NCBI GenBank assembly: GCA_021513695.1
Contig: CP084166.1
Coordinates: 480,001 to 544,000 of the forward strand
Direction of reading: 5' to 3'
From: Candidatus Heimdallarchaeum aukensis
GTDB lineage: Archaea; Asgardarchaeota; Heimdallarchaeia; Heimdallarchaeales; Heimdallarchaeaceae
Length of the DNA stretch: 64,000 nt
Shown here: in pieces, positions 16,335 to 33,932 of the stretch
Layout of the letters: each line of letters starts with the position of its first letter
Position numbering within the stretch: the first letter of the stretch is position 1
The notes under the pieces: generated by a model
Told to the model about the DNA's origin: nothing
Databases searched by the model: none
Seen by the model: only the letters and a program-made list of their open reading frames with translations
Position numbers and translations under genes: made by a program

Positions 16335-16346
16335 ATAACTTATGGA

Positions 16347-17073: not shown

Positions 17074-17661
17074 CTAATCAACCATAAGTTTGGGAAATTT
17101 TGAAAGTTCCATTAATTTCATGAATTTTTTTCCTTTCTTAAAAATAGTATCTATACATTCAATTATTATATCCAAAAGCTCTTCTACTTTTTCTTTTTTT
17201 ACAGGTTTTAGTCCATGAGCAAGTATTGATTCATTTCTCTCTTTTAAAAGGTCTTTCATTTTGTTGGATGAAGAAAACATTTTCCCAAGATCATCATTCA
17301 AATCGTCTAAAACTAGATAACAATCATATAATCCCAACTTTACTTTTGAACCATTACTTTTTCTTTCTTTGAAATAACTTATACGTTGAGAAGAAACTCC
17401 TAACTTTTCTAATTGCTCTAAGGATATGTCATGGGGAGGTAAATTGTAGGCACTCTTTAATCTATACTGTGCCATAAGTTCTACAGCTCTGTAGAGCCTA
17501 GCCATTGCATCATCAAACTTTTCTTCTTTTAATCGACGTTTTGCGTTATTTAATAAATCTGCAAGAAAATAAAGGTCTTTCTCTATTTTTTTATCACTTT
17601 TATGTAACAAGTCGCACAAAAATTCTTTATTAAAACTATATTCTTTGCCAAGCTGTTTCAT
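17074..17661 (-). pseudogene. Duplicated 3' fragment of csx1 (HEPN half only) created by the 2.7-kb tandem duplication.
   Basis: Identical to the C-terminal 195 aa of the 409-aa Csx1 at 19770-20999. Lacks the CARF domain. The upstream frame is replaced by the repeat junction. Confidence 0.55.
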
Positions 17662-17679
17662 TTTATCAAAAGCTTCTTT

Positions 17680-18234: not shown

Positions 18235-18269
18235 TATGGAGATTAAAAATAAAAAAAAGGTGATAATAT

Positions 18270-19031: not shown

Positions 19032-19043
19032 ATAACTTATGGA

Positions 19044-19517: not shown

Positions 19518-19769
19518 CTATAATTGAAAATTAAATAAAAAAATAACAAAACAAATTTATTGCAAAAATAATTTAAAATTCGCACAAATATTTGGATACT
19601 TCTTCTTTTTTAAATTCAAATTTTATCAAAAACTTGAAAAGAATGCTAAATAGTCTATTTTTTAAATAAATAGGAAACAAAAAAAGTTTAGACTAAGTGG
19701 TTAGTTTTTGAAGTATAAATGAGGAGAAATAGGAACTGTATAATTTAAAGAAGAATAAAAAAAATAGGA

Positions 19770-20999
19770 CTAATCAACCATAAGTTTGGGAAATTTTGAA
19801 AGTTCCATTAATTTCATGAATTTTTTTCCTTTCTTAAAAATAGTATCTATACATTCAATTATTATATCCAAAAGCTCTTCTACTTTTTCTTTTTTTACAG
19901 GTTTTAGTCCATGAGCAAGTATTGATTCATTTCTCTCTTTTAAAAGGTCTTTCATTTTGTTGGATGAAGAAAACATTTTCCCAAGATCATCATTCAAATC
20001 GTCTAAAACTAGATAACAATCATATAATCCCAACTTTACTTTTGAACCATTACTTTTTCTTTCTTTGAAATAACTTATACGTTGAGAAGAAACTCCTAAC
20101 TTTTCTAATTGCTCTAAGGATATGTCATGGGGAGGTAAATTGTAGGCACTCTTTAATCTATACTGTGCCATAAGTTCTACAGCTCTGTAGAGCCTAGCCA
20201 TTGCATCATCAAACTTTTCTTCTTTTAATCGACGTTTTGCGTTATTTAATAAATCTGCAAGAAAATAAAGGTCTTTCTCTATTTTTTTATCACTTTTATG
20301 TAACAAGTCGCACAAAAATTCTTTATTAAAACTATATTCTTTGCCAAGCTGTTTCATTTTATCAAAAGCTTCTTTATGGTTAAATCTATCCCATAAACTA
20401 AAAGAATCAATTAAATTGTAATAGTATTCTTTTGTTTTGTCTCCGTTTAATAATACTATTTCATCTAAATAATTTCGTGCAGCATTATATCGATAATTAT
20501 TGAAAGATTCTTTCATTCTCCTTAACAATAATTTGTCATATACTGAATAAAGACTTTGCTCGACAATTCTTTCAGTACCTGAAAGAACAACACCATCTTT
20601 TCTTCTGCCTGAAATCAAAGTTAGTTTTTTGTGAAAAAGTACTGCAGCGATAGCTGCACTCATAGTCATTGTTTTTGTTCCAGAAGTATAGTCAATTATT
20701 ATTTCAGAATTGGAATACTTGTATATCTCATTCTGAATTAGTTGAAAACAACTATCAAAATCATCAATAGAAGTAAATTGAATAAATTCGTAAGAAGACA
20801 ATTCCTTGTTATACTGTGATTTATGTTGCCTTTCTATCTCCTTTATTGTTTTACGACTGTCTTCAGAACCAAAAAAAACAATATGATCAGGTTTATAGTG
20901 TTCAATACAAACTAGCAGTCCATGAGCTAAACTCTCAATTTTCTTGTCAACGTCCTCCCCTATTGCAGTTCCTACAGTCATAAAAAGAATACGTTTCAT
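19770..20999 (-). CDS. csx1: Csx1/Csm6-family CARF-HEPN ribonuclease (type III CRISPR ancillary effector).
   Basis: N-terminal CARF: MKRILFMTVGTAIG... and IIDYTSGTKTMTMSA (the D-x-T-x-G-T-K-x-M motif). C-terminal HEPN R-x6-H: RNESILAH. 409 aa. Confidence 0.7.
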   Translation of the reverse strand: MKRILFMTVGTAIGEDVDKKIESLAHGLLVCIEHYKPDHIVFFGSEDSRKTIKEIERQHKSQYNKELSSYEFIQFTSIDDFDSCFQLIQNEIYKYSNSEIIIDYTSGTKTMTMSAAIAAVLFHKKLTLISGRRKDGVVLSGTERIVEQSLYSVYDKLLLRRMKESFNNYRYNAARNYLDEIVLLNGDKTKEYYYNLIDSFSLWDRFNHKEAFDKMKQLGKEYSFNKEFLCDLLHKSDKKIEKDLYFLADLLNNAKRRLKEEKFDDAMARLYRAVELMAQYRLKSAYNLPPHDISLEQLEKLGVSSQRISYFKERKSNGSKVKLGLYDCYLVLDDLNDDLGKMFSSSNKMKDLLKERNESILAHGLKPVKKEKVEELLDIIIECIDTIFKKGKKFMKLMELSKFPKLMVD

Positions 21000-21111
21000 G
21001 GTAAACCACTAACTAACTTTTAAAATAATTAAATCAAAATTTTTAAGCGTTACTAAAAACAAATATGTAAATAAAGCAATTACAAGGTAAAAATCCGTCA
21101 TCTTACTCAAC

Positions 21112-21690
21112 TTAAATTACTTTGAAACGGCCATAACCTAATGCAGTTTTTGCACCTAGTCCATGAATTTTCAATATGCCTGGCAGTAAGCTATTAATAA
21201 AATTCAAGTCTTCATCCATTTCAGTATAGTTTCTCTTTGGTAATAGCACAATTTGAAACTCTTGTTCAACATCAACAGCAAGAAACGGAATAGGAATAGG
21301 CTTCATCCAATCTCCTGGTGCTTCTTTTTCCAAATAATATTGTGAATAATGAGGAGTAATAATTTCTCCTTTTAATCTTGGAAATTTAGTTGGTAACATG
21401 TCTAAAAATATCATAGAACCAACTTCATTTGAGAGAGTTTTTTGATTTTCTTCTTTTGATAAAGAACCAAAAATTCTCTTTATTTGTTTTTTTTCGTTAT
21501 CGTCGTCCATTAGATCTATTATATAATCACGGATAGCACCTTTCAACGAGCTACCAGGTAGAAAAGGAACACCTAATGTATAGTGCCACAGAAAACCCAC
21601 TTCAATTGGATGTGGAAGACCAACACCTGTAATAAATGGAGTCAAAGTTCTAACATAAATAATTCTTCCATTTCGCTGTTCAGACAACAA
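21112..21690 (-). CDS. cmr6: Cmr6 (Cas7-group RAMP). The frame is actually open upstream to 21933.
   Basis: RAMP signatures: PFITGVGLPHP, FLPGSSLKGAIRDY and a C-terminal G-rich loop HGLGAKTALGYGRF. The ORF track starts at a TTG. The same frame stays open for 81 more codons up to the in-frame stop at 21934-21936, which overlaps the cmr5 stop. No ATG/GTG/TTG occurs in that extension. Confidence 0.6.
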   Translation of the reverse strand: MLSEQRNGRIIYVRTLTPFITGVGLPHPIEVGFLWHYTLGVPFLPGSSLKGAIRDYIIDLMDDDNEKKQIKRIFGSLSKEENQKTLSNEVGSMIFLDMLPTKFPRLKGEIITPHYSQYYLEKEAPGDWMKPIPIPFLAVDVEQEFQIVLLPKRNYTEMDEDLNFINSLLPGILKIHGLGAKTALGYGRFKVI

Positions 21691-21926
21691 TAGTCTATGC
21701 TCAATGCATCTCTTAAGTAAAAAATTTTCATGTTTTACTTCATTATCAGTAAGTTTAGTAAAATGTTCAATCCATTTTTTCTTTCCCTCACTTATATATT
21801 CGATGTAATTATTTTTTTTCCACTTGTCAAAAAATTTTGAGTAGACTAAACCCTTGTTTGCACATTTATAGTTTTCATAGAAAAAGTTTTGTTCATTAAA
21901 CTTATGTCCTTTATAGATTACATTAG

Positions 21927-22223
21927 TCAGTTTTCATTCACCTCAACCTTGGCTTGAGCTAGTTTTTTTAGCCATCCAAGGAACTCTAAAGTTTCTATCT
22001 GTGCAAGAATATACTCATCTTGTGTTGCATTTGTAATGTTATAAATTAAATCATTAGAATCTGTAAAAATATTCACCTTTTTTAACCATGTTTCTATAAT
22101 ATCAACAATTTTTTTATGGGCCTTTTTATCGCCATTATCGGGTTTAGGAGTTGCACTTGCTAGTTCCATTGCAATGGCTTGTCCAAGACCATTCATTACA
22201 ATTGTAGCTGGTAAACTTTTCAC
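21927..22223 (-). CDS. cmr5: Cmr5 (Cas11 small subunit).
   Basis: 98-aa helical protein between cmr4 and cmr6. It carries an NGLGQAIAMELAS-type motif resembling the Cmr5 GLG region. The call rests on position and size. Confidence 0.5.
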   Translation of the reverse strand: MKSLPATIVMNGLGQAIAMELASATPKPDNGDKKAHKKIVDIIETWLKKVNIFTDSNDLIYNITNATQDEYILAQIETLEFLGWLKKLAQAKVEVNEN

Positions 22224-22327
22224 ATAACTTAAAAAGCTTGAATTGTTTATTTCGTCATCATCAATTACTTCATTTATTGATGCTAAAGCAAATTTAGCCC
22301 TATCGTTATCTGATAAAAACTCCAGAT

Positions 22328-23275
22328 TTATTCACCTCCTTTATCTGCATCAATTTTATCTATATGATGAATGATTTTTTCTGCATAATCCAGTTTTACA
22401 TGAAACCAACCTTGACCAACAGTTTCATTTCCTCCGATCTGGAGAAAACAACTATTAGTTAATAAATTGTCCAAAAAATCAATTCCATCTTCCTCAGAAA
22501 AAACTAAGCAATACATTAGAGTATCAGAGGAAATGTACTCTTCGTACCACAAATTTCTGCTTGACTTTGTCTCTGAATTTAATATATTCCTTGCTCGTAT
22601 TTCTAACCCAAAATTTGCGAACCATTTAAAATCATCATTATGAAGTATAACAAGCTGGTCTTTTAGTCTGTTCCTTACATCATCATCGGGTATCATAGCT
22701 GATAATAAATTAGCCAAATTGTCTATACCTTCACTTTCTTCTTTTTCAAATTGCCGTTCTTCAAGAAAAATATATTGTTCATTCACACAAGATAGAGTTT
22801 TTCCTCTTGTCACTTCGGGAATTGTAAATGAATATTTTATTCCTAAGCGTTTTAGGTCTCTTTTCAGTCTTTCTAATATATATGGACAAGTAATCCATCT
22901 ATAATTCGTCAATAAACTTCGTACTGGTAGCAATAGTAAGCGTGCATCAGAAATTAATAATTTTCCAGCAGAATCAGAACTTCCAAAGTACTTATCAACC
23001 TTTTTATTTGTTATATTAGAATTAACACCAACATTCTCATTAGCTAAACCACGCAGTGAGCCTTTTAAACTAGTGCTTGGTATGAAAGGATAACTTGTAA
23101 TTGTTTCACGAGCTACGGGACAATCTACTATTGATGTAGGATGTCCAGTTCCTGTATGAACAAATGTTTCAGCCAACATTTTCATTATTTTCCCTTTTAA
23201 ATTCGACTTCTTTTCATTTTGTTCCATATTAATCACCTCTTTCCCATTTTCCAAAAAGAAATTGTCCAAATCCAA
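22328..23275 (-). CDS. cmr4: Cmr4 (Cas7 backbone RAMP).
   Basis: FIPSTSLKGSLRGL and a C-terminal G-rich loop QIGGNETVGQGWF. 315 aa from the longest start. The true start is probably an internal Met (MEQNEKK or MKMLAETF), because the longest start overlaps the cmr3 3' end by 47 nt. Confidence 0.7.
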   Translation of the reverse strand: MDLDNFFLENGKEVINMEQNEKKSNLKGKIMKMLAETFVHTGTGHPTSIVDCPVARETITSYPFIPSTSLKGSLRGLANENVGVNSNITNKKVDKYFGSSDSAGKLLISDARLLLLPVRSLLTNYRWITCPYILERLKRDLKRLGIKYSFTIPEVTRGKTLSCVNEQYIFLEERQFEKEESEGIDNLANLLSAMIPDDDVRNRLKDQLVILHNDDFKWFANFGLEIRARNILNSETKSSRNLWYEEYISSDTLMYCLVFSEEDGIDFLDNLLTNSCFLQIGGNETVGQGWFHVKLDYAEKIIHHIDKIDADKGGE

Positions 23276-24389
23276 ATTCAGTTAATTTACCTATTTTATT
23301 GGAAACCAATCTTTTTAATGAAGATGTATTTTTTTCATCAAAAAAGAATGTAGACCCTGGAGGAATAAAAGGTCTGACTTCTAGAGGTTCTTTTTTTACT
23401 GCATTCCATCCTCCAATGCGAAGAATATCACCAATGTTAGCACCTATAACCTCAGAACCAAACTTTTTTGACAAAAATGTCATAACTTCATCTAGAGAAT
23501 CTCCTAAATATGCAGGAGTAATAAATGTAATTGTAAAATTATCAGAAACTGTTGAAATAGGGGGTATTTTATCAATTACTGGGAATTCTATTTCCTTGTA
23601 ACTAATATTAGCTATCTTTCCTTCTCCACCTATACGGTTACACCAATTTTCAATTGAGTCAAGTAAATCAATACCATTGACTTTCATACAAAGTACAATA
23701 TTTTCTAACCTTATCATTTGACGCGAAAATAAATTTCCAGTAACTGCAGTATTGGTTGTAGGATCTATTTCAATACCAATCTCATTTTCTTTTTGCCATA
23801 ATTTATTCTCAGAGAGAAAACGAACATTTTTAAGACTTTCAGAAGAAAAGGACAATAATCTTTCTAGATCATCAAATTTAACATAATAATTTTGTAATGT
23901 TTTATAACCATAATTACCACTTCTTCTTGGAAGTAAAATACTCTTTCTATCATGTTTGTCTTTACTTATACTTGACAAATACTTTTGTTTAGAAGGAATT
24001 AAATAATCCAGATCTACAATCTCTTCGTTTTTTTGAGAGGAAATGTGTCCAATTATATGTAAAGGAACAGGAAATAAAGGATGAAATTGATTATCCTCTT
24101 TTAATAATAAGTAAGGACCAAAAAAGTCTAAAGGCCCAAGATCGGTACCATCACCCAATTTACTAATTATATTTTCATCCCATTTACTGCTTCCATCCCA
24201 TCCATAATATCGAGCTAGTAAGGATCTTATTAGTCCAGTAATTGAAAATGGAGATGGTGGAAAAACACTTTTAACAAAATCTGACGAACTATCACTTTTA
24301 TAGAAAGAATAGTTTCCTCTAAAAAACAACCTATCTAAAGGTTCAATTATGAAACACTGTTCCTTAGCCATTTTTATTACCAACCCCAT
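23229..24389 (-). CDS. cmr3: Cmr3 (Cas5-group RAMP).
   Basis: The N-terminus FIIEPLDRLFFRGNYSF matches the Cmr3 IxPLDPLFFRDG signature. 386 aa. Lies between cas10 and cmr4. Confidence 0.7.
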   Translation of the reverse strand: MGLVIKMAKEQCFIIEPLDRLFFRGNYSFYKSDSSSDFVKSVFPPSPFSITGLIRSLLARYYGWDGSSKWDENIISKLGDGTDLGPLDFFGPYLLLKEDNQFHPLFPVPLHIIGHISSQKNEEIVDLDYLIPSKQKYLSSISKDKHDRKSILLPRRSGNYGYKTLQNYYVKFDDLERLLSFSSESLKNVRFLSENKLWQKENEIGIEIDPTTNTAVTGNLFSRQMIRLENIVLCMKVNGIDLLDSIENWCNRIGGEGKIANISYKEIEFPVIDKIPPISTVSDNFTITFITPAYLGDSLDEVMTFLSKKFGSEVIGANIGDILRIGGWNAVKKEPLEVRPFIPPGSTFFFDEKNTSSLKRLVSNKIGKLTEFGFGQFLFGKWERGD

Positions 24390-26373
24390 GTTGATAAAGA
24401 AATTTTATAATATCAAGAAAACTTATAAAAAACTCATTTTCAGAGCTTTCAGGTATATACTCATTATTCTCATCTAATACTCTATATGACCGCTTCATTA
24501 GTTTAATCAATAAGCAAATAGTGGAATCTAATTTTTCGTTATTTAATTTTCTGTTTTCATGAGTAACAAATTCAGATTTTAATACTGTACTCAAATCTTT
24601 TCCAAAATCAGATATCTTTACAACATTTAGAGATTTACTTATTTCTTTATTTTCGTTTAATTTTCTAAAGACATTTCTAATTCTATACAATGCTCCTATC
24701 GAAAGATCGACATTAGAATCATAAAATAATTCAGAAATAAATTTCTCAAAATCATATCCATTTTTCTCAATAGAAGAAATAACGTCAAAAGTTGTTACAT
24801 ATTGATATTCTTTAGTTCCTCCTTTTAATAATGAAATTGCAATACTAGATCGACCATTATAATCTTTTGCAACTTCATCCAAAAGATAATGAGCTTTTTT
24901 CAAGACATCTTGTAAAGGATCATTAAAATGAGCGAAAACAATTCCTGCGGACATTGTTGCTTTTTTAGCATGCTTATCCATTTCTTCAACAAATCTATTA
25001 TTAATTGAAATTGCACATGAAATAACTTTATTTATTGGAACAAAAGCTAGAACATCGTCACCTCCAGCGTAAACAAGTACTCCATTATAATTTCTTACAA
25101 TTTCTTCTACTTCAATTGCAAATTTGGCAAGAATCTTACTAACTTTTTTTATAGCTTCTTTTTCTCCTTTTTCTTTCAATTTTTTGATAACATCACCTAT
25201 TTTATCACCATCCATTATCAGAACAGAGTAATAAGGTGATGGTATTATTTCACACTTATCGTAAATATTATCAACAAGATTTTTAGAAAGTTTTTTTCGA
25301 TATTCTTCGTATTCGGATGGAAACATAATTTTATTCTCATTTTTTAATAAGTCAGTATAATAAAGTTGAGCATCTAACTGAAAGAAAGGTTTGATTGCCT
25401 TTGCATCTTCTGATGCTCCTTCTTTATTGAAATTAAAATCAAACCATTGAGTAACATTAGGTCTTTTCAAATGTGATAAATCTTTGACTTTTTTAGCAAA
25501 ACTAATCAAAGATTTTCTCAATTCTAAATCTGTAGCAGCTTTTTCTTCTAACATGAACAACCAAGGTAAAGCTGCAATATAAACCGTTGAGGGCCAGTTT
25601 AGTATAGTTTTGCTTTTTAGAATTTCTTCTGAACATAAAGGAAACAATCGTTTTATTAATGCAATAGAAGAAAGCCTTTCATCATCTTTTAGTACGTATT
25701 TTAAAATATTTTTTCTAACTCGTTCCCAAAATGCATCTTGCTTATCTTTTTCACTTGTACTTTTTCCTCTGATAAAACCCGATAATTCTTGCCAATTTCC
25801 CATCATTTTACAACGATCACCCTTCTCAACAGGGAAAGAAAAAGGTGACCAAAGTTTAAAGTTAGAGAAATATTTTATTTCTTCTTCATTTTCTACTATT
25901 AACCATCGTATATTCCAAAAATTACTAGTTTGTCTAGCCCAAATCTTCTTTACTTCTGGATATTGTTTTTCTAGACTTGAAAAATATCTATCCCAAATCG
26001 TATCACAAATCCTCAACCATTCATTTCTAACAACAATTTCTGCTTTTTTAGCTAATTGAAAAGGATCTTTGCTTTTAGTTTTTATCACAGCTTGGTTTGG
26101 AATTGAACCTACTTTTGGGACTCCTTCAAGACCTTTGGTTTCATTCTTATCTGATTTTTCTTTTAAAGCATTTATAAAGGAATAAAATTCATTTCCATCT
26201 AGATTAGGCGATTCTATTGTTCCTCCAGAAATCATAAATTCATGCAATGCAACCCCAGTTAAGTAAGAAAGCAAATAAGAACCTACCCATAAATCTTGAG
26301 TCTTTCTAGCTTGTGCAATAAAAGACTGAACTGGGCCTATGGAAAAAATAATTGTAGTCTCATTAGTATCCAT
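24364..26373 (-). CDS. cmr2: Cas10/Cmr2 lacking the N-terminal HD nuclease domain, with an intact GGDD cyclase (Palm) motif.
   Basis: The N-terminus IIFSIGPVQSFIAQARKTQDLWVGSYLLSYL is the typical Cmr2 D1-domain start. VLVYAGGDDVLAFVP provides GGDD. 669 aa, which corresponds to Cas10 minus the ~200-aa HD domain. Confidence 0.8.
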   Translation of the reverse strand: MDTNETTIIFSIGPVQSFIAQARKTQDLWVGSYLLSYLTGVALHEFMISGGTIESPNLDGNEFYSFINALKEKSDKNETKGLEGVPKVGSIPNQAVIKTKSKDPFQLAKKAEIVVRNEWLRICDTIWDRYFSSLEKQYPEVKKIWARQTSNFWNIRWLIVENEEEIKYFSNFKLWSPFSFPVEKGDRCKMMGNWQELSGFIRGKSTSEKDKQDAFWERVRKNILKYVLKDDERLSSIALIKRLFPLCSEEILKSKTILNWPSTVYIAALPWLFMLEEKAATDLELRKSLISFAKKVKDLSHLKRPNVTQWFDFNFNKEGASEDAKAIKPFFQLDAQLYYTDLLKNENKIMFPSEYEEYRKKLSKNLVDNIYDKCEIIPSPYYSVLIMDGDKIGDVIKKLKEKGEKEAIKKVSKILAKFAIEVEEIVRNYNGVLVYAGGDDVLAFVPINKVISCAISINNRFVEEMDKHAKKATMSAGIVFAHFNDPLQDVLKKAHYLLDEVAKDYNGRSSIAISLLKGGTKEYQYVTTFDVISSIEKNGYDFEKFISELFYDSNVDLSIGALYRIRNVFRKLNENKEISKSLNVVKISDFGKDLSTVLKSEFVTHENRKLNNEKLDSTICLLIKLMKRSYRVLDENNEYIPESSENEFFISFLDIIKFLYQHGVGNKNG

Positions 26374-27569
26374 TATATCTCCTCTTTACAATCAAATCTA
26401 TCAAAAAATGAATCTAAAAACGACCAATTTACTGCTAAAGGGACTTCTGTTGAATTTACTATTTTTTTTACTGTTCTATTACGAATTCTGTGTTGTTTTG
26501 TTGCTATAATTTTGAGTTTATTGTTCTGTAAAAATTTGGATTTTAATATCAAACCTATTGCAGCATAATGCTGTTGAACTTTAATGATTTTTATGAAAAG
26601 CGGGCTTGCTCTTCTAGTTGCACTATTTGAAAATGGTGATATCATTACACTTGTTTTATTGCTCTGAAAATAATAATTATGAGGTAAGCCAAAAATAATA
26701 CGTTCAGGATGCTCTTCAATTTTATTTTTATTAGTAAAATCAAGCATTAGATCATGATCTCTCTTAAAGTTTCTCTCAGCTCTTATTCCTCCTGGTAGTT
26801 CTCCACTATCCCCATAACTTCTATATTTTAATAACTCAAATCCAATAGAATTTAACAATTTATTAACATCACTGTCAATTTTTAATAAACAAGCCCTAGA
26901 ATACCTTGAAAAACGGGAATACAGTAAATCATTAATTTGTATCTGGTCTTCTTCTTTAAATTCAGCAAGAAAGTTCTCAATATTAATTTTTAAATCTTTT
27001 ACATTCTTTGATTGGATATATTCTAGCTCATCACCATTTTTTATCTCTTCAATATGAAATGATCCTAACCCTCGTCTAGATCTTGCGCCTATACCTCCAA
27101 AATAACTGAGAGCTATTAGAGCTTTAATAATAGAATTTTTAATGGATTTTTTACATTTTTTATTCAAATTTCTAAAGTAGATATTTATTTTTCCATTAAC
27201 AGGTGGTAAAACATATTCCTTAATATCATCTTTATGTTTTTTAATACCATATGTTAAATAACTTAATCCATATTCATTTTTTCCATATCCTTTAAAATGA
27301 CCCTTTTTGAAGTAATCTACCTCTGCATTTAATATCACCTTAGATTTACCAACGGACTTATCTGTGCTACTGAAAATCATAGTTTCATTACGATATAATT
27401 CATCTATAGTTTTTAGCTTAAAGTATTTCCAAGCTATCGCTCGCCACCAGAATCTTAAAGCCCCTTTAAAACTAGAAAGTCTAAATTCTGCTTTAGACTG
27501 ATCATAGCCGCGTAAAAATAGAGGAGTAACTATTTCAAACTTAACTGAAATATGTTCATACTCTTTCAC
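26373..27569 (-). CDS. cmr1: Cmr1 (RAMP).
   Basis: LSSFKGALRFWWRA matches the Cmr1 S-x-KG-x-LRFWFRA motif. G-rich loop GGIGARSRRGLGSF. The stop overlaps the cas10 start (TAATG-type coupling). Confidence 0.7.
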   Translation of the reverse strand: MKEYEHISVKFEIVTPLFLRGYDQSKAEFRLSSFKGALRFWWRAIAWKYFKLKTIDELYRNETMIFSSTDKSVGKSKVILNAEVDYFKKGHFKGYGKNEYGLSYLTYGIKKHKDDIKEYVLPPVNGKINIYFRNLNKKCKKSIKNSIIKALIALSYFGGIGARSRRGLGSFHIEEIKNGDELEYIQSKNVKDLKINIENFLAEFKEEDQIQINDLLYSRFSRYSRACLLKIDSDVNKLLNSIGFELLKYRSYGDSGELPGGIRAERNFKRDHDLMLDFTNKNKIEEHPERIIFGLPHNYYFQSNKTSVMISPFSNSATRRASPLFIKIIKVQQHYAAIGLILKSKFLQNNKLKIIATKQHRIRNRTVKKIVNSTEVPLAVNWSFLDSFFDRFDCKEEI

Positions 27570-27836
27570 AATTATGACACCGTCAGCAATACAATTATTA
27601 TTTTATCTATTGTTTTTTATTTATAAGTTTAGTCTAATATTTTAAACAAAGTGTAATTTTAAATTTAAAATTTAAAAAAGCAATTATTTATTTATGATAG
27701 TCCTCATTACGTTTTATTTTTAGTAAAAATAGTTGTTTTAGTTAATCTTTTTTAAATGTAAAAGATAAATACTAATTTTTTCTATTAAATGGTTTAAATA
27801 CTTTTTTAAAGAAAGTATTACCTAATACATATAATT

Positions 27837-28391
27837 ATGTGTGAGCTAGTATATGTAACATTAGCTGGTTCTTCTAAAAAAGCTATTGTAAACTCAATAT
27901 ATTTTACAGTAAAAGAATTTATTAAAAAAAATATTAAATCAGTTGAAAAATTGTCAATTTTGATAATAAAATCAAATACAAGTCCAATAAAAAAAGAGTC
28001 TATAAAAACTTCTATAACAGAATATTTTAGTCTATCAAAAGAATTATCGGATATCAAAATTGAATTTTTCGAAGAAAAAGTAGTTCCAGAGCATATGTTA
28101 ATAGATATTTTTAAAGAGATTCAAAATGAACTTGTTCCTTTTTTAGACAATAATCAAAATAAGCTAATTATTGTAGATTTGACCGCATCAAGAAAAATAA
28201 TGTCGATAGGTCTCACTCTAAGTATTATTGAGTATTGGAAAAAGAAAAAAAACAACAATGTTTTTGTGTCCTATTACTTACTTAAGAAATTTTACGACAA
28301 TAAAGAGAAAATAACTATAGAATTATTTCCTGATGAATTCTCCGTTGAAATATGGTCTATCAAAGATTTAGAGGTGATCTTTAGTGAATGA
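27837..28391 (+). CDS. Small stand-alone CARF-like protein (candidate cyclic-oligoadenylate sensor or ring nuclease), transcribed divergently from cmr1.
   Basis: 184 aa. Begins ELVYVTLAGSS (CARF-like strand-1 motif) and contains LIIVDLTASRKIMSIGL, resembling the CARF D-x-T-x-G-x-K-x-M core. The call is based on motif reading only. Confidence 0.4.
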   Translation: MCELVYVTLAGSSKKAIVNSIYFTVKEFIKKNIKSVEKLSILIIKSNTSPIKKESIKTSITEYFSLSKELSDIKIEFFEEKVVPEHMLIDIFKEIQNELVPFLDNNQNKLIIVDLTASRKIMSIGLTLSIIEYWKKKKNNNVFVSYYLLKKFYDNKEKITIELFPDEFSVEIWSIKDLEVIFSE

Positions 28392-28980
28392 TAAAGAAAC
28401 AGAACTATATTTTGCTCAGTTTTTTGAAAAATTTCTAAAAAACAAAGAAATTATCATTAAAGGTTACAATGAAAGCAAAAATAGTGAATTTGAAATATCT
28501 TTCTCTGAACCGAAATTAATTTTCACTGGTGGTTTGCTCAATAGTACCATTCGAGATCTACTCTTTAATATAGCTATAGACAAAAATCAATTTGCTAAAA
28601 ACTATGAAGAACTAATTAGTGCAATTAATGAGGAATATATCATCGCAAAAAAGGATAATCGAATTCTAGCTTTGGGTATTGATACCAATATAATCTATTC
28701 AGGAGTTCTACTTACTGGATTATACAAACGTTTAATGAAAAAATTAGACTGGAAATTCCCTTTAATTGTAATCTCACATACCACTTCAGAAGAAATTCAC
28801 TATAAACGAGCTTCTAAATATAAAAATCCAACTTTAAATCAATTTAAAGCTAATATTCAGAAACAATCTGAAAATATTCAAAGTTTATTAAATAAAGTAT
28901 TTGCTGAAGAAGGAATGAATATTTCAGAAAGTGTTTATAGAAATCTACTTGATAGAGATGGTAGATTAGGCCATCTCTAG
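28384..28980 (+). CDS. Hypothetical protein, translationally coupled to the CARF-like gene (8-nt overlap).
   Basis: 198 aa. No clear family. Contains ILALGIDTNIIYSG, which is weakly PIN/NYN-like. Operon partner of 27837-28391. Confidence 0.3.
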   Translation: MNDKETELYFAQFFEKFLKNKEIIIKGYNESKNSEFEISFSEPKLIFTGGLLNSTIRDLLFNIAIDKNQFAKNYEELISAINEEYIIAKKDNRILALGIDTNIIYSGVLLTGLYKRLMKKLDWKFPLIVISHTTSEEIHYKRASKYKNPTLNQFKANIQKQSENIQSLLNKVFAEEGMNISESVYRNLLDRDGRLGHL

Positions 28981-29200
28981 GAGTATACAAATTGCTCTTA
29001 CATCGCATTAAAATGAATACAATTGTAATAAAATCAATTCACCCTTATTACTCTGGAAAGTTTTCCAATAATGGAAATGTTCCTAGAGAAATTGGTGCAA
29101 TATATGATTCTTTAGTTTGCATTAATTCATAACTCTAGAAGAAGGATTTTTGAACAAGATTAAATTAAAAAAAAAAAAGGATATAGAGAAAGTTGAGTTG

Positions 29201-30718
29201 TTACCAAATGAAGTCTACTATTAAGTTTCCAAGTGTCCAAGTAGATGGTAAAATACCAACTGATGCCAGAGCACACCATGCATCATACGCAAATCCAATA
29301 CCATACACAGGTTCTAAAGCATCACCAATACCAGCATCAATAACATTTGCAACAATAGTTTTCATTTCACTTGTAGAAATAGTACCGTCGTCAACAAGAG
29401 CGATTGCAACAGAAATAACACCTGTAGCAAGCATAGATATACATGGTGAAAAATAACTCGTTTTAAGAGCGTTTTTTAGGATATTTCTTATTTCTTCTTC
29501 AGTTATAGTGTCAGTAGGGGATACCTTAAACAAGTTTCCAATTAATTCATAGGTAGCATCTTTTATGTGTGCACCTGTGCTCCCTATTATTTTATCAGTG
29601 AAGTCTCTTAATGCTTTTGCCATTTTTCCTGCGGTTTCTGTGGAATGAGAAAGATAATAACTATTACAGTATCCCTTAATGTCTTCAATGACTTTTAGAG
29701 TATTATCTACAAGTTGATAACTATTCAATGAAGCTTTGATATCAGAGGTATCTGATGTTCTATCGCTAGCGAATGCCATTATAAATTCCCTGATTTCTCC
29801 AGAACCATCACCCCAACTAAATACATCTTTTGCTAGTATTTTCCATTTAAGGGGTCTGTGGGCGTAAGAAGGATTGTTTACTGATATCGTGAATTCAAGA
29901 GTTTTTTCTCCAGGATCTGGATTGGAAGAGCTATGTCTGTCCCATAATTGTGCTATATACACATTTTCATTATTAACAGCATCGTAGTAACCCAAATACA
30001 CATCAAGTTGAGTCCAGTCTGAGTATGATATCCTTGTCTTTACATATATATAATCAACATATACATTATCTGGTACGTAATAGTTATATATTGAAGCATA
30101 AGCCATAAAGGGATCGTCTAATTCTACTTCATTGTGATAAGTACTATCGAAGTAATAAGCATCTCTTGATACTGCTACAGAACCTTCACCCCCCTCACCG
30201 CCATATGGACTGTTTGTTTCATACTGACTATTTCCGCCTATTCCAGTTGTAATCGCGATAGACCAATAATCGATATATCCTTTATCACCGCTAGCACAAT
30301 CTTCTACGCGTAATTTCCATGTACCATAACAGTTGAATCCTTTAAAATAACTTGTAATAACGAAATCCTGATGGATGTCATCTGAGCTACCACCTTCTCT
30401 GTCCCAAATTTGATAAGTTAACCCACTAGGACTGACAACCCATATTTTTAGGTCTCCAATCCATGTATGAATAATGCTCACGTAAACTGAAACAGTATCT
30501 ATAGAATCAGATTTTGAGATATATATATAGCTTTCTGTTGTAGAATGATCATAGATATTATAGTTTGATCCATTGGACCCCTGTGTACCTGCAGCACTTG
30601 TAGCGCTAGTTGGCATTATGAATGTATTTTGAGGAATCACTGTTACTATCATTAATGCTAATATAGACAGACTTATTAAGTAGATTTTTGATTTAGATTT
30701 TAATTTCATGTTATCCAT
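29201..30718 (-). CDS. Secreted protein with a proprotein-convertase P-domain (pre-peptidase C-terminal-like) but no protease domain.
   Basis: Signal peptide/TM at the N-terminus (LISLSILALMIVTVIP). HTWIGDLKIWVVSPSGLTYQIW...GTWKLRVEDCASGDKGYIDYWSIAI matches the P-domain GDLxIxLxSPxGT...GxWxLxVxD...G.LxxWSL pattern. Confidence 0.5.
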   Translation of the reverse strand: MDNMKLKSKSKIYLISLSILALMIVTVIPQNTFIMPTSATSAAGTQGSNGSNYNIYDHSTTESYIYISKSDSIDTVSVYVSIIHTWIGDLKIWVVSPSGLTYQIWDREGGSSDDIHQDFVITSYFKGFNCYGTWKLRVEDCASGDKGYIDYWSIAITTGIGGNSQYETNSPYGGEGGEGSVAVSRDAYYFDSTYHNEVELDDPFMAYASIYNYYVPDNVYVDYIYVKTRISYSDWTQLDVYLGYYDAVNNENVYIAQLWDRHSSSNPDPGEKTLEFTISVNNPSYAHRPLKWKILAKDVFSWGDGSGEIREFIMAFASDRTSDTSDIKASLNSYQLVDNTLKVIEDIKGYCNSYYLSHSTETAGKMAKALRDFTDKIIGSTGAHIKDATYELIGNLFKVSPTDTITEEEIRNILKNALKTSYFSPCISMLATGVISVAIALVDDGTISTSEMKTIVANVIDAGIGDALEPVYGIGFAYDAWCALASVGILPSTWTLGNLIVDFIW

Positions 30719-30910
30719 TTCTTCTCACCTGTCGTAAGTAGAGGCATCCTCATACTCAAATGGGATGCCAATTTATATTTCACTACCGTTCTTTAAAAAT
30801 CAATTGTGCTTATAAGCAAAGCCTAATCTTGTTTTAATCACCATCAAGAACTTTTATGAATATAAAAAGAAGAAAGCTTTTTATTGTTGTTATCATATTA
30901 AAATTTATTA

Positions 30911-33541
30911 GTGAGGTTCACAGCAGCAAATAAAATATTATTGTCTCTTTTATTCAATGATTGTGTTCATATGTCTAATTCCCATCAATATAATGTTAGC
31001 TATTATGCTACACAGCGTGGAATAGCTGAAAGTACAGGTATTCCTCTGACAAATATCCCTAGAACCCTAAAAATGTTAATTAAAAAAGGATTTGTAGAAC
31101 AAAGTATGGGGTATACAAAAGATGCAATAAGAAGAAGAAAAGTGTATTTTCTCACAGAAATTGGAAAAAAAATGGCACAAAACCTTTACCATGAGCTATT
31201 AGAGCAAGAAATTACAATAATTAATAAACACGGTAAGAGTGAATTACATCCATTTAATGAAGTAGCGAAATTATATAATGTAGACGTTATAAAGATACTT
31301 AGAAATTTGGATTTGCAAGGAAATATTATGCTGGAAGAGCTTGTTCAAAATAACAATGAGGCTAATAAAGTTTATTTTCTTAATTATACACCAGAAGAGA
31401 ATTTTTTTTTCGGAAGAAAGGAAGAATTAGAAAAAATCAGAAGATTTATTGAACACGAACACAAAAAAGTTATAGCTGTATACGGTATTGCAGGTATAGG
31501 AAAGACCTCGTTGATATTAAAAATAATGCAGAATTATAGAAAGAATTACAATATTTTTTATTATAGATTACACGAGTGGGACAGCTTACGAAGTGTGTTA
31601 ACTTCATTATCTGACTTTTTAAGTAGGCTTGGAAAGAAAAGTTTGAGAAAATATTTGAATAATAACAGACCTTGCCTTGATGAAGTTCAAGCAATATTAA
31701 GAAAAGAATTAATGAACGTTAATTCTCTGTTGGTAATCGACGAAGTTCAAAACATTGCGAGCGATGAAATAGTTGATTTACTAAAATATCTTATAATAAT
31801 CTTTTGTGCTGAAATTGAGAATTCAATCCTTATTTTCGCCAGTAGAAAGAGGGTTAATTTCTACTCAATGAAACATACTCTAAAACGAAGCATCGGAGAA
31901 ATTGTTTTGAATGGGCTGGATAGGGAATCAAGTAATAAAATAATTGAGAAGAATATAAATATAAGAAACTTTGAGGAAATTTATAATATTACACAGGGAC
32001 ATCCCCTTGCTCTTAGATTCATAAGTAATTGCAATACGTTAAAGAAAGGAGAAAAAAACATCCTGAATTATGCATTCAATGAAATATATGACAATCTCTC
32101 ACCAAAAGAGAAAGAATTGTTATTTTTTCTCTATACATGTCGATATCCAGTGACAACTCAAATGCTTTTAGATAATAACTTTTCTTATGAAACTTTCCAA
32201 AGACTCTATAACAAAAGCTTTTGTTTTAAAACAGTTTTAGGTAATGTGCAACTACATTATATCCTTCGCAGCTTCCTTCACAAGCTTTTCTCACATAGTA
32301 TATCAGAAAACACGCAAATAGTAACTAACATAAAGATTGCAGAATATTATAGAAAAAATAAAACACCCTTGAACATTATTGCTGCTATATATCATTATTT
32401 TCATGCAAAAGAACACGAACAAGCTATAAAGCTAGCGATTCAATATGAGGATCTAATTATCGAAAATGGTTATTCTCAAGAGTTGATAGATATTTTAGAA
32501 ACGTTTGAAAAAGATATTATTTTAAAAGAAGATTGGAAGAGTATACTACAACTCAAAGGTAACGCGTATAATGCAATAGGAAAAATAAATTATGCGTTAA
32601 ATTTATACTTACAAGTCTTGGAATTATGCAAGAATACAGAAAAACCAGAAATAGAGCTTTTATTGGAAATAGGAAAATTGTATTTGAAAAAAAACGCATT
32701 TGATATTGCTTTAGATAAATATATCGAATGTTTAAGAAATGCAAAAGAAAGTGATAATAAAGAGAACATTGCTTATAGTTACTATTATATAGGAAAAACC
32801 TACTGGAAAAAAGGAAATCTTAAAAAATCGATTAGATGTTTGAAGAAAGCTCTTAGGTTCAGTAATCAAACCAACAATCTACACCTTAAAGGAAAAATCT
32901 ACATGGATTTTGCGATGGTATATTCTCTCAGAGCAATGTGGCAACAAGCAATAAATAGTTCTCTTCTAAGTCTTGAATTATTAGAAAGAACAGGCAATTA
33001 CTATGAGATAAGTAAGGCGTATAATAATATTGGAGTAATCTATTCCTCTAGGGGAGATTATGAGAAAGCAATTTATTACTACGAAAAACAATTAAGATGT
33101 GCAGAGAAATACGACTTTATACGAACAAAAGTTTATGCTTTTTGTAATATTGCATGGGCAATTGCTAATAAAAATAATGTATCTAAACAAGAGTTAGAGA
33201 AAGCAATAGGTTTATGCTCACAAGCTTTTGATATCTCACGACATCTTAAGGATGATAGGATAACAGCAGGTCTCTACACAGCTTATGGTTGCTTATTTGC
33301 AAAAATGCAAAAGTGGGCAAAAGCTATCCATTACTTTAATCATGCAATCAACTACTTAGAAAAAGAGAAGGATATCCTTCTCCTTCCTCGAATATTTTTT
33401 TGGTTTGGAAAAATCTATAAAGAGAAAGGCGATATAGCCAATGCTAAGAAATATTTTAACAGAGCTTATAAATATTATAAAAGAAGAAAAAACCGAATAA
33501 GAATTAAAGAGATTGAAGTTGAATTAGAAACATGTGTTTAG
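30911..33541 (+). CDS. STAND-type P-loop NTPase with an N-terminal winged-helix (MarR/PadR-like) domain and C-terminal TPR repeats.
   Basis: Walker A GIAGIGKTSL, Walker B SLLVIDEVQN, multiple TPR-like repeats in the C-terminal 350 aa (AYNNIGVIYSSRGDYEKAIYYYEKQL etc.). The N-terminal about 90 aa looks like a transcriptional-regulator wHTH. The real start may be the ATG at 30971. Confidence 0.55.
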   Translation: MRFTAANKILLSLLFNDCVHMSNSHQYNVSYYATQRGIAESTGIPLTNIPRTLKMLIKKGFVEQSMGYTKDAIRRRKVYFLTEIGKKMAQNLYHELLEQEITIINKHGKSELHPFNEVAKLYNVDVIKILRNLDLQGNIMLEELVQNNNEANKVYFLNYTPEENFFFGRKEELEKIRRFIEHEHKKVIAVYGIAGIGKTSLILKIMQNYRKNYNIFYYRLHEWDSLRSVLTSLSDFLSRLGKKSLRKYLNNNRPCLDEVQAILRKELMNVNSLLVIDEVQNIASDEIVDLLKYLIIIFCAEIENSILIFASRKRVNFYSMKHTLKRSIGEIVLNGLDRESSNKIIEKNINIRNFEEIYNITQGHPLALRFISNCNTLKKGEKNILNYAFNEIYDNLSPKEKELLFFLYTCRYPVTTQMLLDNNFSYETFQRLYNKSFCFKTVLGNVQLHYILRSFLHKLFSHSISENTQIVTNIKIAEYYRKNKTPLNIIAAIYHYFHAKEHEQAIKLAIQYEDLIIENGYSQELIDILETFEKDIILKEDWKSILQLKGNAYNAIGKINYALNLYLQVLELCKNTEKPEIELLLEIGKLYLKKNAFDIALDKYIECLRNAKESDNKENIAYSYYYIGKTYWKKGNLKKSIRCLKKALRFSNQTNNLHLKGKIYMDFAMVYSLRAMWQQAINSSLLSLELLERTGNYYEISKAYNNIGVIYSSRGDYEKAIYYYEKQLRCAEKYDFIRTKVYAFCNIAWAIANKNNVSKQELEKAIGLCSQAFDISRHLKDDRITAGLYTAYGCLFAKMQKWAKAIHYFNHAINYLEKEKDILLLPRIFFWFGKIYKEKGDIANAKKYFNRAYKYYKRRKNRIRIKEIEVELETCV

Positions 33542-33562
33542 TTTAACTTTTGTAAGTTATTT

Positions 33563-33838
33563 ATGCAATTTTCATTGTTTACTTACACAAACAAGTTGAT
33601 ATTAACAAAAGATAAGCAATTATATTCTCTGTTAAAGAGGACTGGAATACGTAGCGAATATATGGAGCTACCTAAATCAAGAGAAATAGCCAATAAAATT
33701 AAAATAACATACAATCAGTTTTCATATCTTGCTCGAGAATTGTTAGTATTATCTCCTTATTTAATAATAGAAGTAGATAATAAATCAATAGTACTAACAA
33801 TGAATTGGTTTGGACATGAAAAAGAAAAAATGGTATAG
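33563..33838 (+). CDS. Small hypothetical protein.
   Basis: 91-aa ORF in AT-rich context. No recognisable motif. Confidence 0.2.
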   Translation: MQFSLFTYTNKLILTKDKQLYSLLKRTGIRSEYMELPKSREIANKIKITYNQFSYLARELLVLSPYLIIEVDNKSIVLTMNWFGHEKEKMV

Positions 33839-33932
33839 AGGAGTAAAACGCTACAACAAAAATTGATGGTAAAGTTAGACATTTGTGTATTAAATGAAAT
33901 AAATATACTTATACAATATGAGCTATTGCGAT

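What the first reader, a model, noticed from the sequence alone, without database searches (positions are those of the whole stretch)
19770..27569. Type III-B (Cmr1-6) effector with HD-less Cas10 retaining GGDD, followed by Csx1; no array, cas6 or adaptation genes in 64 kb
The gene order cmr1-cas10-cmr3-cmr4-cmr5-cmr6-csx1 on the minus strand is tightly coupled, with overlapping stops and starts. Cas10 begins directly at the D1 domain with no HD nuclease, but keeps GGDD. Interference is therefore predicted to rely on cyclic-oligoadenylate signalling to the CARF-HEPN Csx1, plus Cmr4 target-RNA cleavage. No CRISPR repeats were found anywhere in the window, so crRNAs must come from a distant array and a trans-acting Cas6.
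Basis: partly seen in the sequence, partly recalled or inferred. Interest (0 to 1): 0.55.

Follow-up and report, generated by a model that had tools for sequence, protein, structure and literature searches.

The report
Array-less type III-B CRISPR module
This is an ordinary, already annotated type III-B CRISPR effector operon (Cmr1-6, with a Cas10 that lacks the HD nuclease but keeps its cyclase site, plus a Csx1-type RNase) that has no CRISPR array of its own and sits in a 16-kb defence island of the Asgard archaeon Candidatus Heimdallarchaeum aukensis.

Summary
Window 19770-27569 (minus strand) encodes cmr1, cas10/cmr2, cmr3, cmr4, cmr5, cmr6 and a CARF-6H-HEPN RNase, and all seven score above curated HMM cut-offs. 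Cas10 (669 aa) starts at the Cmr2_N/D1 region. It aligns from residue 7 to residue 249 of an HD-bearing Cas10, and its start overlaps the cmr1 stop, so there is no room for an HD domain. GGDD (437-440) and DGD (388-390) are intact. No array, cas6 or cas1 was found in the 64 kb.

It is not new. The window comes from Ca. Heimdallarchaeum aukensis, GenBank already names these genes, and Wu et al. 2022 report one "array-free operon (C7)" alongside complete CRISPR-Cas loci in the two Heimdallarchaeum genomes. HD-less, cyclase-positive Cas10 is the majority state of type III systems. Of 46 related loci with full flanks, 26 also lack an array within 10 kb.

- cmr5 and cmr6 start at CTG codons.
- A stand-alone CARF gene and a disrupted PIN-like gene lie next to cmr1.
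- The locus lies in a 16.3-kb island that is absent from H. endolithica.
- A 2.7-kb tandem duplication copies the 3' half of csx1.

The parts
26373..27569 (-). cmr1 (398 aa, GTG start)
   Evidence: TIGR01894 scores 70.9 bits against a 28.65 cut-off, and Pfam RAMPs matches. GenBank UJG41238.1 is named 'Cmr1'.
24364..26373 (-). cas10/cmr2, HD-less (669 aa)
   Evidence: TIGR02577 scores 197.5 bits. Cmr2_N matches from residue 8 and the palm2 domain covers 381-512. In the PDB alignment, query residue 7 pairs with residue 249 of the HD-bearing 9l7c_B, and residue 13 with residue 209 of 6s6b_K. GenBank UJG41237.1.
25054..25065 (-). GGDD cyclase motif (residues 437-440). The DGD metal motif is at residues 388-390, within window 25195-25215.
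   Evidence: These columns are invariant in an alignment of 26 HD-less Cmr2 proteins.
23229..24389 (-). cmr3 (386 aa; GenBank aa from the second ATG)
   Evidence: Pfam Cas_Cmr3 matches profile positions 2-367 of 367 at 4.9e-56. UJG41236.1.
22328..23227 (-). cmr4 (299 aa), catalytic Asp35 within window 23105-23131
   Evidence: TIGR02580 scores 178.5 bits. The alignment to P. furiosus Cmr4 places D35 on D26.
21927..22325 (-). cmr5 (132 aa) starting at CTG 22325, 6 nt after the Shine-Dalgarno sequence GGAGGTGA
   Evidence: The extended protein matches Pfam Cmr5 positions 3-118 of 119 at 106 bits, against 82.7 bits for the 98-aa ORF. The 34 upstream codons show 8 synonymous and 2 non-synonymous changes against L082. 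GenBank UJG42175.1 begins MEFLSDND.
21112..21930 (-). cmr6 (272 aa) starting at CTG 21930, which overlaps the cmr5 stop as CTGA
   Evidence: TIGR01898 scores 134 bits. PDB Cmr6 alignments begin at residues 66-68, upstream of the TTG start called by ORF finders. The start context is identical in L082. RLG10349.1 is annotated at 271 aa from this CTG.
19770..20999 (-). csx1/csm6-type CARF-6H-HEPN RNase (409 aa). CARF motif DYTSGTK at 20673-20693; HEPN motif RNESILAH at 19911-19934.
   Evidence: TIGR02710 scores 212 bits. Pfam Csm6 HEPN and Csm6_6H match. PADLOC CARF_HEPN/Csx1 matches. The closest solved relative is TtCsm6 5FSH.
17074..17661 (-). Duplicate of the 3' (HEPN) half of csx1, created by the tandem duplication 14995-17692 / 17693-20388
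   Evidence: Self-BLAST shows 2.7 kb that differ at two homopolymer runs only. Pfam Csm6 HEPN matches at 1e-37. GenBank UJG41229.1.
27837..28391 (+). Stand-alone CARF-domain protein (184 aa), divergent from cmr1. Motifs are LAGSS (residues 9-13) and DLTASRK (114-120).
   Evidence: PADLOC CARF models match at 3e-5 to 5e-4. A family profile against PDB returns only CARF proteins in its top 8 hits, the best being the Crn1 ring nuclease Sso2081 at E about 0.006. Homologues hit Pfam CARF_Card1 and Csa3_N.
28384..29130 (+). 5' part of a PIN-like gene (pseudogene; frameshift near 28975)
   Evidence: It matches residues 1-200 of 359-389-aa proteins P0162, P0163 and P0191, which carry D..E..D..D motifs. 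The frameshift and the insertion were mapped.
29131..33562 (.). 4.4-kb insertion that splits the PIN-like gene. It carries a P-domain protein (29201-30718, minus strand) and a wHTH-STAND NTPase-TPR protein (30911-33541, plus strand).
   Evidence: It is absent from relative L082, where the flanks are contiguous.
33563..33838 (+). 3' part of the PIN-like pseudogene, ending at a premature stop
   Evidence: It is 86% identical to the C-terminal fragment in L082 and 35-42% identical to P0162 and P0163.
33933..34301 (-). 122-aa fragment resembling the N-terminus of a CD-NTase/SMODS-type nucleotidyltransferase
   Evidence: NCBIfam CBASS_cyclase_a matches at 2.6e-5 and Pfam NTP_transf_2 also matches. 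Similarity to the SMODS protein of L088 is weak.
34532..35229 (+). IS5-family transposase remnants at the right edge of the island
   Evidence: NCBIfam transpos_IS5_2 and Pfam DDE_Tnp_1 match. The Illumina contig L001 ends at 34509.
19572..35868 (.). 16.3-kb island inserted between the BCCP gene and accC. It is absent from the syntenic site of Ca. H. endolithica.
   Evidence: L086 (CP084167.1) has BCCP and accC 34 nt apart.

Best explanation
This is a stand-alone type III-B (Cmr) interference module in a defence island of Ca. Heimdallarchaeum aukensis.

Shown by sequence:
- All six Cmr subunits and a CARF-6H-HEPN RNase are intact.
- Cas10 has no HD domain, but its cyclase motifs (DGD and GGDD) are intact.
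- Cmr4 keeps the RNA-cleaving Asp.
- The RNase keeps its CARF ligand motif and its HEPN R-x6-H motif.
- The operon is under purifying selection.

Inferred:
- The complex is loaded with crRNAs cut by a Cas6 from one of the complete CRISPR-Cas loci elsewhere in the genome.
- On pairing with a complementary transcript, Cmr4 cuts the target RNA.
- The Cas10 palm domains make cyclic oligoadenylate, most likely cA4.
- The cOA activates the Csx1/Csm6-type RNase for non-specific RNA degradation.
- There is no Cas10-mediated DNA cleavage.
- The neighbouring stand-alone CARF protein may bind or degrade the same signal. Its PIN-like partner is a pseudogene here.
For: - HMM memberships are above curated cut-offs for all seven genes.
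- HD is absent by alignment, and there is no space for it because the cas10 start overlaps the cmr1 stop.
- DGD and GGDD are invariant across 26 family members.
- Cmr4 D35 aligns with PfCmr4 D26.
- The Csx1 motifs align with TtCsm6.
- dN/dS against a relative that is 85-99.8% identical by nucleotide across the genes (Cas10 89% by amino acid) is 0.09-0.41 for the six cmr genes.
- The same seven-gene operon occurs on four metagenome contigs.
- Wu et al. 2022 report an array-free operon alongside complete CRISPR-Cas loci in these genomes, with C2 in H. aukensis.
- In-trans sharing of crRNA processing between CRISPR loci is documented (PMC11229360; the title of PMC5576922).
- 61% of type III Cas10 proteins lack HD while 92% keep the cyclase.
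Against:
- Activity, the cOA species produced and the ligand of Csx1 are all untested.
- cmr5 and cmr6 depend on CTG start codons, whose efficiency in this archaeon is unknown.
- The surroundings show decay: a PIN-like pseudogene, IS remnants and a truncated nucleotidyltransferase.
- csx1 has 3 non-synonymous and 0 synonymous differences from the relative, which is too few to test selection on it.
Confidence: 0.82

Rival explanations
1. The operon is a decaying, non-functional remnant. It was cut off from any array and is being lost along with its neighbours.
For: - There is no array, cas6 or adaptation gene in 64 kb.
- The adjacent PIN-like gene carries a frameshift, a 4.4-kb insertion and a premature stop.
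- The CARF and PIN-like genes are also broken in relatives.
- IS5 remnants lie at the island edge.
- Two subunits lack canonical start codons.
Against: - All seven ORFs are full length against their profiles, with catalytic motifs intact.
- dN/dS is 0.09-0.41.
- The CTG starts sit behind the same GAGGTGA Shine-Dalgarno spacing as the ATG of cmr4 and are conserved in the relative.
- Array-less neighbourhoods are normal for this Cas10 clade, at 26 of 46 loci.
Confidence: 0.12
2. The HD-less Cas10 makes a non-cOA signal, as B. fragilis Cmr makes SAM-AMP. The CARF-HEPN protein would then not be its true effector.
For: Another HD-less type III-B Cas10 makes SAM-AMP rather than cOA (PMC10600005).
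Against: - No CorA, NrN/DEDD or SAM-lyase gene appears in any Pfam, NCBIfam or PADLOC scan of the window.
- The effector encoded in the operon is a CARF-HEPN protein, a class activated by cA4 or cA6.
Confidence: 0.03
3. The HD domain is present but mis-called, either encoded upstream or in another frame, or supplied by a separate gene.
For: None was found.
Against: - The cas10 ATG overlaps the cmr1 stop by 1 nt.
- The N-terminus aligns to the post-HD region of HD-bearing Cas10 proteins.
- More than 100 homologues of 600-680 aa share the same start and carry no HD Pfam domain.
- No HD-domain ORF was found in the window.
Confidence: 0.01

Closest known systems
The widespread family of roughly 600-680-aa HD-less Cas10/Cmr2 proteins of type III-B loci (for example Caldanaerobacter subterraneus, Rubrobacter xylanophilus, Methanothrix; solved example 9arw_A, 612 aa)
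   Same: The architecture is the same: Cmr2_N, then palm2 with GGDD, and no HD. The Cmr subunit set is also the same.
   Different: Identity to any member outside Heimdallarchaeaceae is only 30-37%. The host is an Asgard archaeon.
[quoted passage not shown]
   Same: It is a type III-B system whose Cas10 lacks HD and keeps the cyclase, so defence is outsourced to a nucleotide-activated effector.
   Different: VmeCmr makes mainly cA3 for a NucC DNase and has its own array and a Cas6f. This locus has a CARF-HEPN RNase and no array or cas6 nearby.
Thermus thermophilus Csm6 (PDB 5FSH), in the cA4-activated 'Csx1' group of Hoikkala et al. 2024
   Same: It shares the CARF-6H-HEPN architecture, the DxTSGTK CARF motif and the RNxxxxxHG HEPN motif.
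   Different: Sequence similarity is weak (E about 2e-5). The ligand of the window protein is untested.
Marinomonas mediterranea type III-B using type I-F crRNAs (PMC5576922), and in-trans sharing between CRISPR loci in general
   Same: A type III-B effector relies on arrays or processing from another CRISPR-Cas system.
   Different: The sharing is shown experimentally there and only inferred here.
B. fragilis type III-B BfrCmr (PMC10600005)
   Same: It is an HD-less type III-B Cas10 with an intact cyclase domain.
   Different: It signals with SAM-AMP to CorA. No CorA, NrN or lyase gene is present here.

Membership tests
Type III-B (Cmr) CRISPR-Cas effector module | Cas10/Cmr2 large subunit | tested here: met
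   TIGR02577 scores 197.5 bits against a 79.4 cut-off. Pfam Cmr2_N and Cas10-Cmr2_palm2 match.
Type III-B (Cmr) CRISPR-Cas effector module | Cmr1, Cmr3, Cmr4, Cmr5 and Cmr6 subunits | tested here: met
   All five are above curated cut-offs. Cmr5 covers its full profile once the CTG start is used.
Type III-B (Cmr) CRISPR-Cas effector module | Target-RNA cleavage residue in Cmr4 | tested here: met
   D35 aligns with P. furiosus Cmr4 D26. The role of D26 is from my own knowledge of the literature.
Type III-B (Cmr) CRISPR-Cas effector module | Associated CRISPR array and Cas6 supplying crRNA | tested here: not met
   None was found in 64 kb, or in the 5.4 kb beyond the right end and 0.56 kb beyond the left end. 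This feature is not required for subtype assignment. Wu et al. 2022 call one operon array-free.
HD-less, cyclase-active Cas10 | Absence of the N-terminal HD domain | tested here: met
HD-less, cyclase-active Cas10 | Intact palm metal motifs (DxD and GGDD) | tested here: met
   D388-G-D390 and G437-G-D-D440 are invariant in the family alignment.
HD-less, cyclase-active Cas10 | cOA synthesis on target-RNA binding | not testable with these tools
   This needs biochemistry.
Csx1/Csm6 CARF-HEPN ribonuclease (TIGR02710) | N-terminal CARF domain with ligand motif, 6H domain, and C-terminal HEPN domain with R-x4-6-H | tested here: met
   TIGR02710 scores 212 bits against 83.9. Pfam Csm6_6H and Csm6 HEPN match. 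The motifs are DYTSGTK (residues 103-109) and RNESILAH (356-363).
Crn1-type ring nuclease (for the 184-aa CARF protein) | Stand-alone CARF of about 180 aa with the catalytic Ser and the Lys of the DxTxGRK motif; cA4 cleavage | tested here: inconclusive
SAM-AMP signalling type III-B (CorA type) | CorA effector with NrN/DEDD or SAM lyase | tested here: not met
   No such domains appear in any scan of the window.

The most novel reading that the evidence does not exclude
The two genes divergent from cmr1, a 184-aa stand-alone CARF protein and a roughly 360-aa PIN-like protein, may belong to a rare, undescribed two-gene nucleotide-sensing effector module. The same pair is used both by type III CRISPR (here, in L082, and in L093 next to an MJ1673-family gene) and by a type II CBASS (L088, where the pair precedes a SMODS/OAS1_C cyclase and an E2/E1 Cap2-like gene). 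On this reading the island once had two cOA-responsive arms, and the PIN arm is now dead in this genome.
Probability: 0.3. Interest if true: 0.45.

Novelty: already known. Interest (0 to 1): 0.15.

Why it matters
It matters little for CRISPR biology. HD-less, cyclase-positive Cas10 coupled to a CARF-HEPN RNase is the commonest type III design, array-less III-B modules that borrow crRNAs are well documented, and this locus is already annotated in GenBank and mentioned in the genome paper.

Its modest value is as a curated example from an Asgard archaeon. It documents that cOA signalling modules sit on mobile islands that differ between sister Heimdallarchaeum species. It also corrects the public annotation on three points: Cmr6 is N-terminally truncated in GenBank, one tandem duplication in the deposited assembly is probably an artefact, and the PIN-like gene is a pseudogene.

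Tried and rejected
- **HD in another frame or upstream:** rejected, because the cas10 start overlaps the cmr1 stop.
- **Split or pseudogenised cmr5 and cmr6** (short ORFs with gaps of 105 and 237 nt): rejected. The gaps are in-frame coding sequence with mostly synonymous change, and they begin at SD-preceded CTG codons. A -1 frameshift that fuses Cmr4 to Cmr5 was considered and dropped, because there is no slippery site and stops lie immediately upstream in the cmr5 frame.
- **Alternative genetic code:** not needed.
- **Hidden mini-array:** searches at low stringency found only two chance two-copy repeats.
- **Walking beyond the window:** this reached 5.4 kb to the right and 0.56 kb to the left only.
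- **Paper supplements:** the tables with spacers and repeats from Wu et al. were truncated in the held copy.
- **PDB entry 9ARW:** it could not be traced to a paper.
Full report
**Observation.** The minus strand of window 19770-27569 carries seven ORFs. Pfam and NCBIfam identify them, all above curated cut-offs, as Cmr1, Cas10/Cmr2, Cmr3, Cmr4, Cmr5, Cmr6 and a TIGR02710-family CARF protein with Csm6-6H and Csm6-HEPN domains. PADLOC calls the last one Csx1/CARF_HEPN. The junctions are tight from cmr1 to cmr6:
- cmr1/cas10: 1-nt overlap.
- cas10/cmr3: 26-nt or 8-nt overlap, depending on which ATG is used.
- cmr3/cmr4: 1-nt gap.
- cmr4/cmr5: 2-nt gap.
- cmr5/cmr6: 4-nt overlap.

csx1 follows after a 112-nt gap. 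The reported coordinates and gene order are therefore right.

**Source and prior knowledge.** Exact-sequence look-up places the window in the closed 3.08-Mb genome of Candidatus Heimdallarchaeum aukensis, an Asgard archaeon. GenBank already names these proteins:
- UJG41238.1, Cmr1.
- UJG41237.1, type III-B Cas10/Cmr2.
- UJG41236.1, Cmr3.
- UJG41235.1, Cmr4.
- UJG42175.1, Cmr5.
- UJG41234.1, Cmr6.
- UJG41233.1, TIGR02710-family CARF protein.

The genome paper is Wu et al. 2022 (PMC8813620). [quoted passage not shown] It also places the complete operon C2 in H. aukensis. No figure was available, so the identification of this locus with C7 is an inference. It is nonetheless the only reading consistent with what the window shows.

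**Cas10.** The 669-aa protein matches Cmr2_N from residue 8 and TIGR02577 over residues 7-502. In phmmer against PDB, its residue 7 aligns with residue 249 of an HD-bearing 1004-aa Cas10 (9l7c_B). Residue 13 aligns with residue 209 of S. islandicus Cmr2 (6s6b_K), and residue 4 with residue 19 of a naturally short 612-aa Cmr2 (9arw_A). Its ATG overlaps the cmr1 stop, so no upstream coding space exists. More than 100 homologues of 600-680 aa, from many bacterial and archaeal phyla, share the same N-terminus and carry no HD Pfam domain. In a 26-member alignment, D388-G-D390 and G437-G-D-D440 are invariant. The HD-less, cyclase-intact reading is therefore confirmed at the sequence level.

**Other subunits and start codons.** Cmr4 D35 aligns with P. 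furiosus Cmr4 D26, the target-RNA cleavage residue (the role of D26 is from my own knowledge).

ORF finders give short Cmr5 (98 aa) and Cmr6 (192 aa) with apparent gaps, but the reading frames stay open upstream. Four lines of evidence show the upstream stretches are coding:
- Against a relative (L082; 85-99.8% nucleotide identity across the genes), the 34 codons upstream of the cmr5 GTG have 8 synonymous and 2 non-synonymous changes.
- The extended Cmr5 covers Pfam positions 3-118 of 119, at 106 bits against 82.7 bits for the short ORF.
- PDB Cmr6 alignments begin upstream of the called TTG.
- The motif GAGGTGA followed by 5-7 nt precedes the ATG of cmr4 and a CTG in both cmr5 (22325) and cmr6 (21930). 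The cmr6 CTG overlaps the cmr5 stop as CTGA.

GenBank already uses the CTG for Cmr5 (132 aa). A related record uses it for Cmr6 (271 aa). H. aukensis Cmr6 itself is annotated truncated at 191 aa. An ATA that overlaps the cmr4 stop is an alternative start for cmr5; one related record uses it.

**Csx1.** Its closest solved relative is T. thermophilus Csm6 (5FSH, E about 2e-5). The CARF motif DYTSGTK aligns with DLTSGTK, and the HEPN motif RNESILAHG with RNSALLVHG. Hoikkala et al. 2024 place such cA4-dependent 'Csm6' proteins in their Csx1 class. Predicting cA4 as the activator is an inference from this relationship and from cA4 being the commonest signal.

**No array, cas6 or adaptation genes.**
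- TRF, direct-repeat searches at two stringencies, Rfam and a custom k-mer array finder found nothing CRISPR-like in 64 kb.
- The same finder recovers arrays in 20 of 46 related loci, which shows that it works.
- No Cas6, Cas1, Cas4 or reverse-transcriptase domain was found in any non-antisense ORF of 110 aa or more. ORFs the size of Cas2 outside the island were not scanned.
- Illumina-only contigs extend 5.4 kb past the right end and 0.56 kb past the left end without arrays.
- Among 46 loci of the same HD-less Cmr2 family with full 10-kb flanks, 26 lack an array.
- In a census of 1113 type III loci, only 39% of Cas10 proteins have HD while 92% have the cyclase. In-trans sharing of crRNA processing is documented.

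**Context.** In Ca. H. endolithica the syntenic site reads TldD, TldD, accC, BCCP, hydrolase, then a single 3515-aa PKS, with accC and BCCP 34 nt apart. In H. aukensis 16.3 kb (19572-35868) is inserted there. From left to right it carries:
- csx1 and cmr6 through cmr1.
- A 184-aa gene and a 198-aa ORF, divergent from cmr1.
- A P-domain protein and a wHTH-STAND-TPR protein.
- A 122-aa nucleotidyltransferase fragment.
- IS5 remnants.

The 184-aa protein is a stand-alone CARF protein. PADLOC CARF models match it. A family profile against PDB returns only CARF proteins in its top eight hits, with the best being the Crn1 ring nuclease Sso2081 at E about 0.006. Its homologues hit Pfam CARF_Card1 and Csa3_N.

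The 198-aa ORF is the N-terminal part of a PIN-like protein of roughly 360 aa. That family had only five hits at E up to 0.001 among 1.84 billion representatives. It carries conserved D, E, D, D motifs, and an intact 359-aa allele, P0191, exists in a related population. In the window the gene has a frameshift, a 4.4-kb insertion (29131-33562) and a premature stop.

The CARF and PIN-like genes are adjacent in four independent contexts. One of these sits directly upstream of a SMODS/OAS1_C cyclase and an E2/E1 Cap2-like gene, which is a type II CBASS layout. In relatives of the window both genes are also broken. The six cmr genes, by contrast, have dN/dS of 0.09-0.41.

**Duplications.** Self-BLAST shows two tandem duplications.
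- **5393-7385 = 7386-9378** (1993 bp, 100% identical). It splits the PKS gene. It is present as a single copy in an Illumina-only contig of run SRR15988954 that is otherwise 100% identical to the window, and the PKS is a single gene in H. endolithica. The genome was built from SPAdes contigs scaffolded with MDA-amplified Nanopore reads. This duplication is therefore probably an assembly artefact.
- **14995-17692 / 17693-20388.** The two copies differ only at two homopolymer runs. The duplication copies the 3' (HEPN) half of csx1 as a 195-aa fragment ORF. The Illumina contigs on both sides end exactly 30 nt inside this repeat, at 15024 and 20359. A k=31 graph would do that at a true repeat junction. 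The k value is from my own knowledge of the Logan assemblies, so this duplication is probably real in at least part of the population. The full-length csx1 is intact either way.

**Mechanism and rivals.** The best reading (confidence 0.82) is a trans-supplied Cmr complex. It senses target RNA, cuts it through Cmr4, and signals through cOA to the Csx1-type RNase, with no DNase arm. The rivals are:
- A dead remnant (0.12). It is disfavoured by the intact motifs, purifying selection and conserved start contexts.
- A non-cOA signal such as SAM-AMP (0.03). No CorA, NrN or lyase gene is present, and the operon encodes a CARF effector.
- A hidden HD domain (0.01).

**Verdict.** The finding is accurate, but it describes a common, well-understood architecture in a locus that is already annotated and published. 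The novelty class is 'already known' and the interest score is low. The only parts with some novelty are side observations: the CTG starts, the CARF plus PIN-like pair, and the assembly issues.

Noticed in passing
window 5393-9378: There is an exact 1993-bp tandem duplication (5393-7385 = 7386-9378) that frameshifts a giant PKS/PUFA-synthase-like gene into two ORFs (2998-7518 and 7577-15538). An Illumina-only contig (L091) carries a single copy, and H. endolithica has one 3515-aa gene. The duplication is therefore probably a scaffolding artefact in the deposited genome.
   Followed up: yes
window 14995-20388: There is a 2.7-kb tandem duplication. It covers the PKS 3' end (PPTase domain), a hydrolase gene, the BCCP gene and the 3' half of csx1. 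The two copies differ only at two homopolymer runs, one of which frameshifts the second BCCP copy. Illumina contigs end exactly 30 nt inside both boundaries, which suggests that junction reads exist.
   Followed up: partly
window 21930 and 22325 (minus strand): cmr5 and cmr6 have no ATG, GTG or TTG at their true N-termini. Both appear to start at a CTG 6-7 nt after a GAGGTGA Shine-Dalgarno sequence. The cmr6 CTG overlaps the cmr5 stop as CTGA. GenBank's H. aukensis Cmr6 (UJG41234.1, 191 aa) is about 80 residues too short.
   Followed up: yes
window 27837-29130 and 33563-33838; loci L082, L088, L089/L090, L093: A stand-alone CARF gene sits next to a PIN-like gene of roughly 360 aa, and the pair is conserved in four contexts. 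In one context it lies directly upstream of a SMODS/OAS1_C cyclase and a Cap2-like E2/E1 gene (type II CBASS). The family is very rare, with 5 hits at E up to 0.001 among 1.84 billion representatives. The PIN-like gene is a pseudogene in the window.
   Followed up: partly
window 29131-33562: A 4.4-kb insertion into the PIN-like gene carries a secreted or membrane P-domain (proprotein-convertase P) protein and an 876-aa wHTH-STAND NTPase-TPR protein. The latter has a weak PADLOC PDC-S27 hit and may be an Avs-like defence gene. The insertion is absent from relative L082.
   Followed up: partly
window 33933-34301 (minus strand): A 122-aa ORF resembles the N-terminal part of a CBASS-type oligonucleotide cyclase (NF041116, 2.6e-5). 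It looks truncated, and it is split further in L082.
   Followed up: partly
window 34532-35229: IS5-family transposase fragments lie at the right edge of the island. The Illumina contig L001 ends at 34509, as expected next to a repeated element.
   Followed up: partly
window 19572-35868 vs L086 (Ca. H. endolithica CP084167.1): The whole Cmr-containing segment is a 16.3-kb insertion between the BCCP and accC genes of an acyl-CoA carboxylase/PKS cluster. It is absent from the sister species. An EamA-like ORF (37968-38453) is also absent there.
   Followed up: yes
window 19770-27569 vs L082: Identity to the metagenomic relative is mosaic: cmr1 85%, cas10 93%, cmr3 98%, cmr4 96% and csx1 99.8%. 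csx1 has no synonymous differences. This pattern suggests recent recombination within the operon.
   Followed up: no
window 53960-54523 and 59001-59561 (minus strand): Two small GTPases of the Arf and Ras/Rab families are present. These are typical eukaryotic signature proteins of Asgard archaea.
   Followed up: no
window 21009-21110 (minus strand): A 33-codon hydrophobic ORF fills the 112-nt cmr6-csx1 spacer. It was not tested for conservation and may be chance in AT-rich DNA.
   Followed up: no
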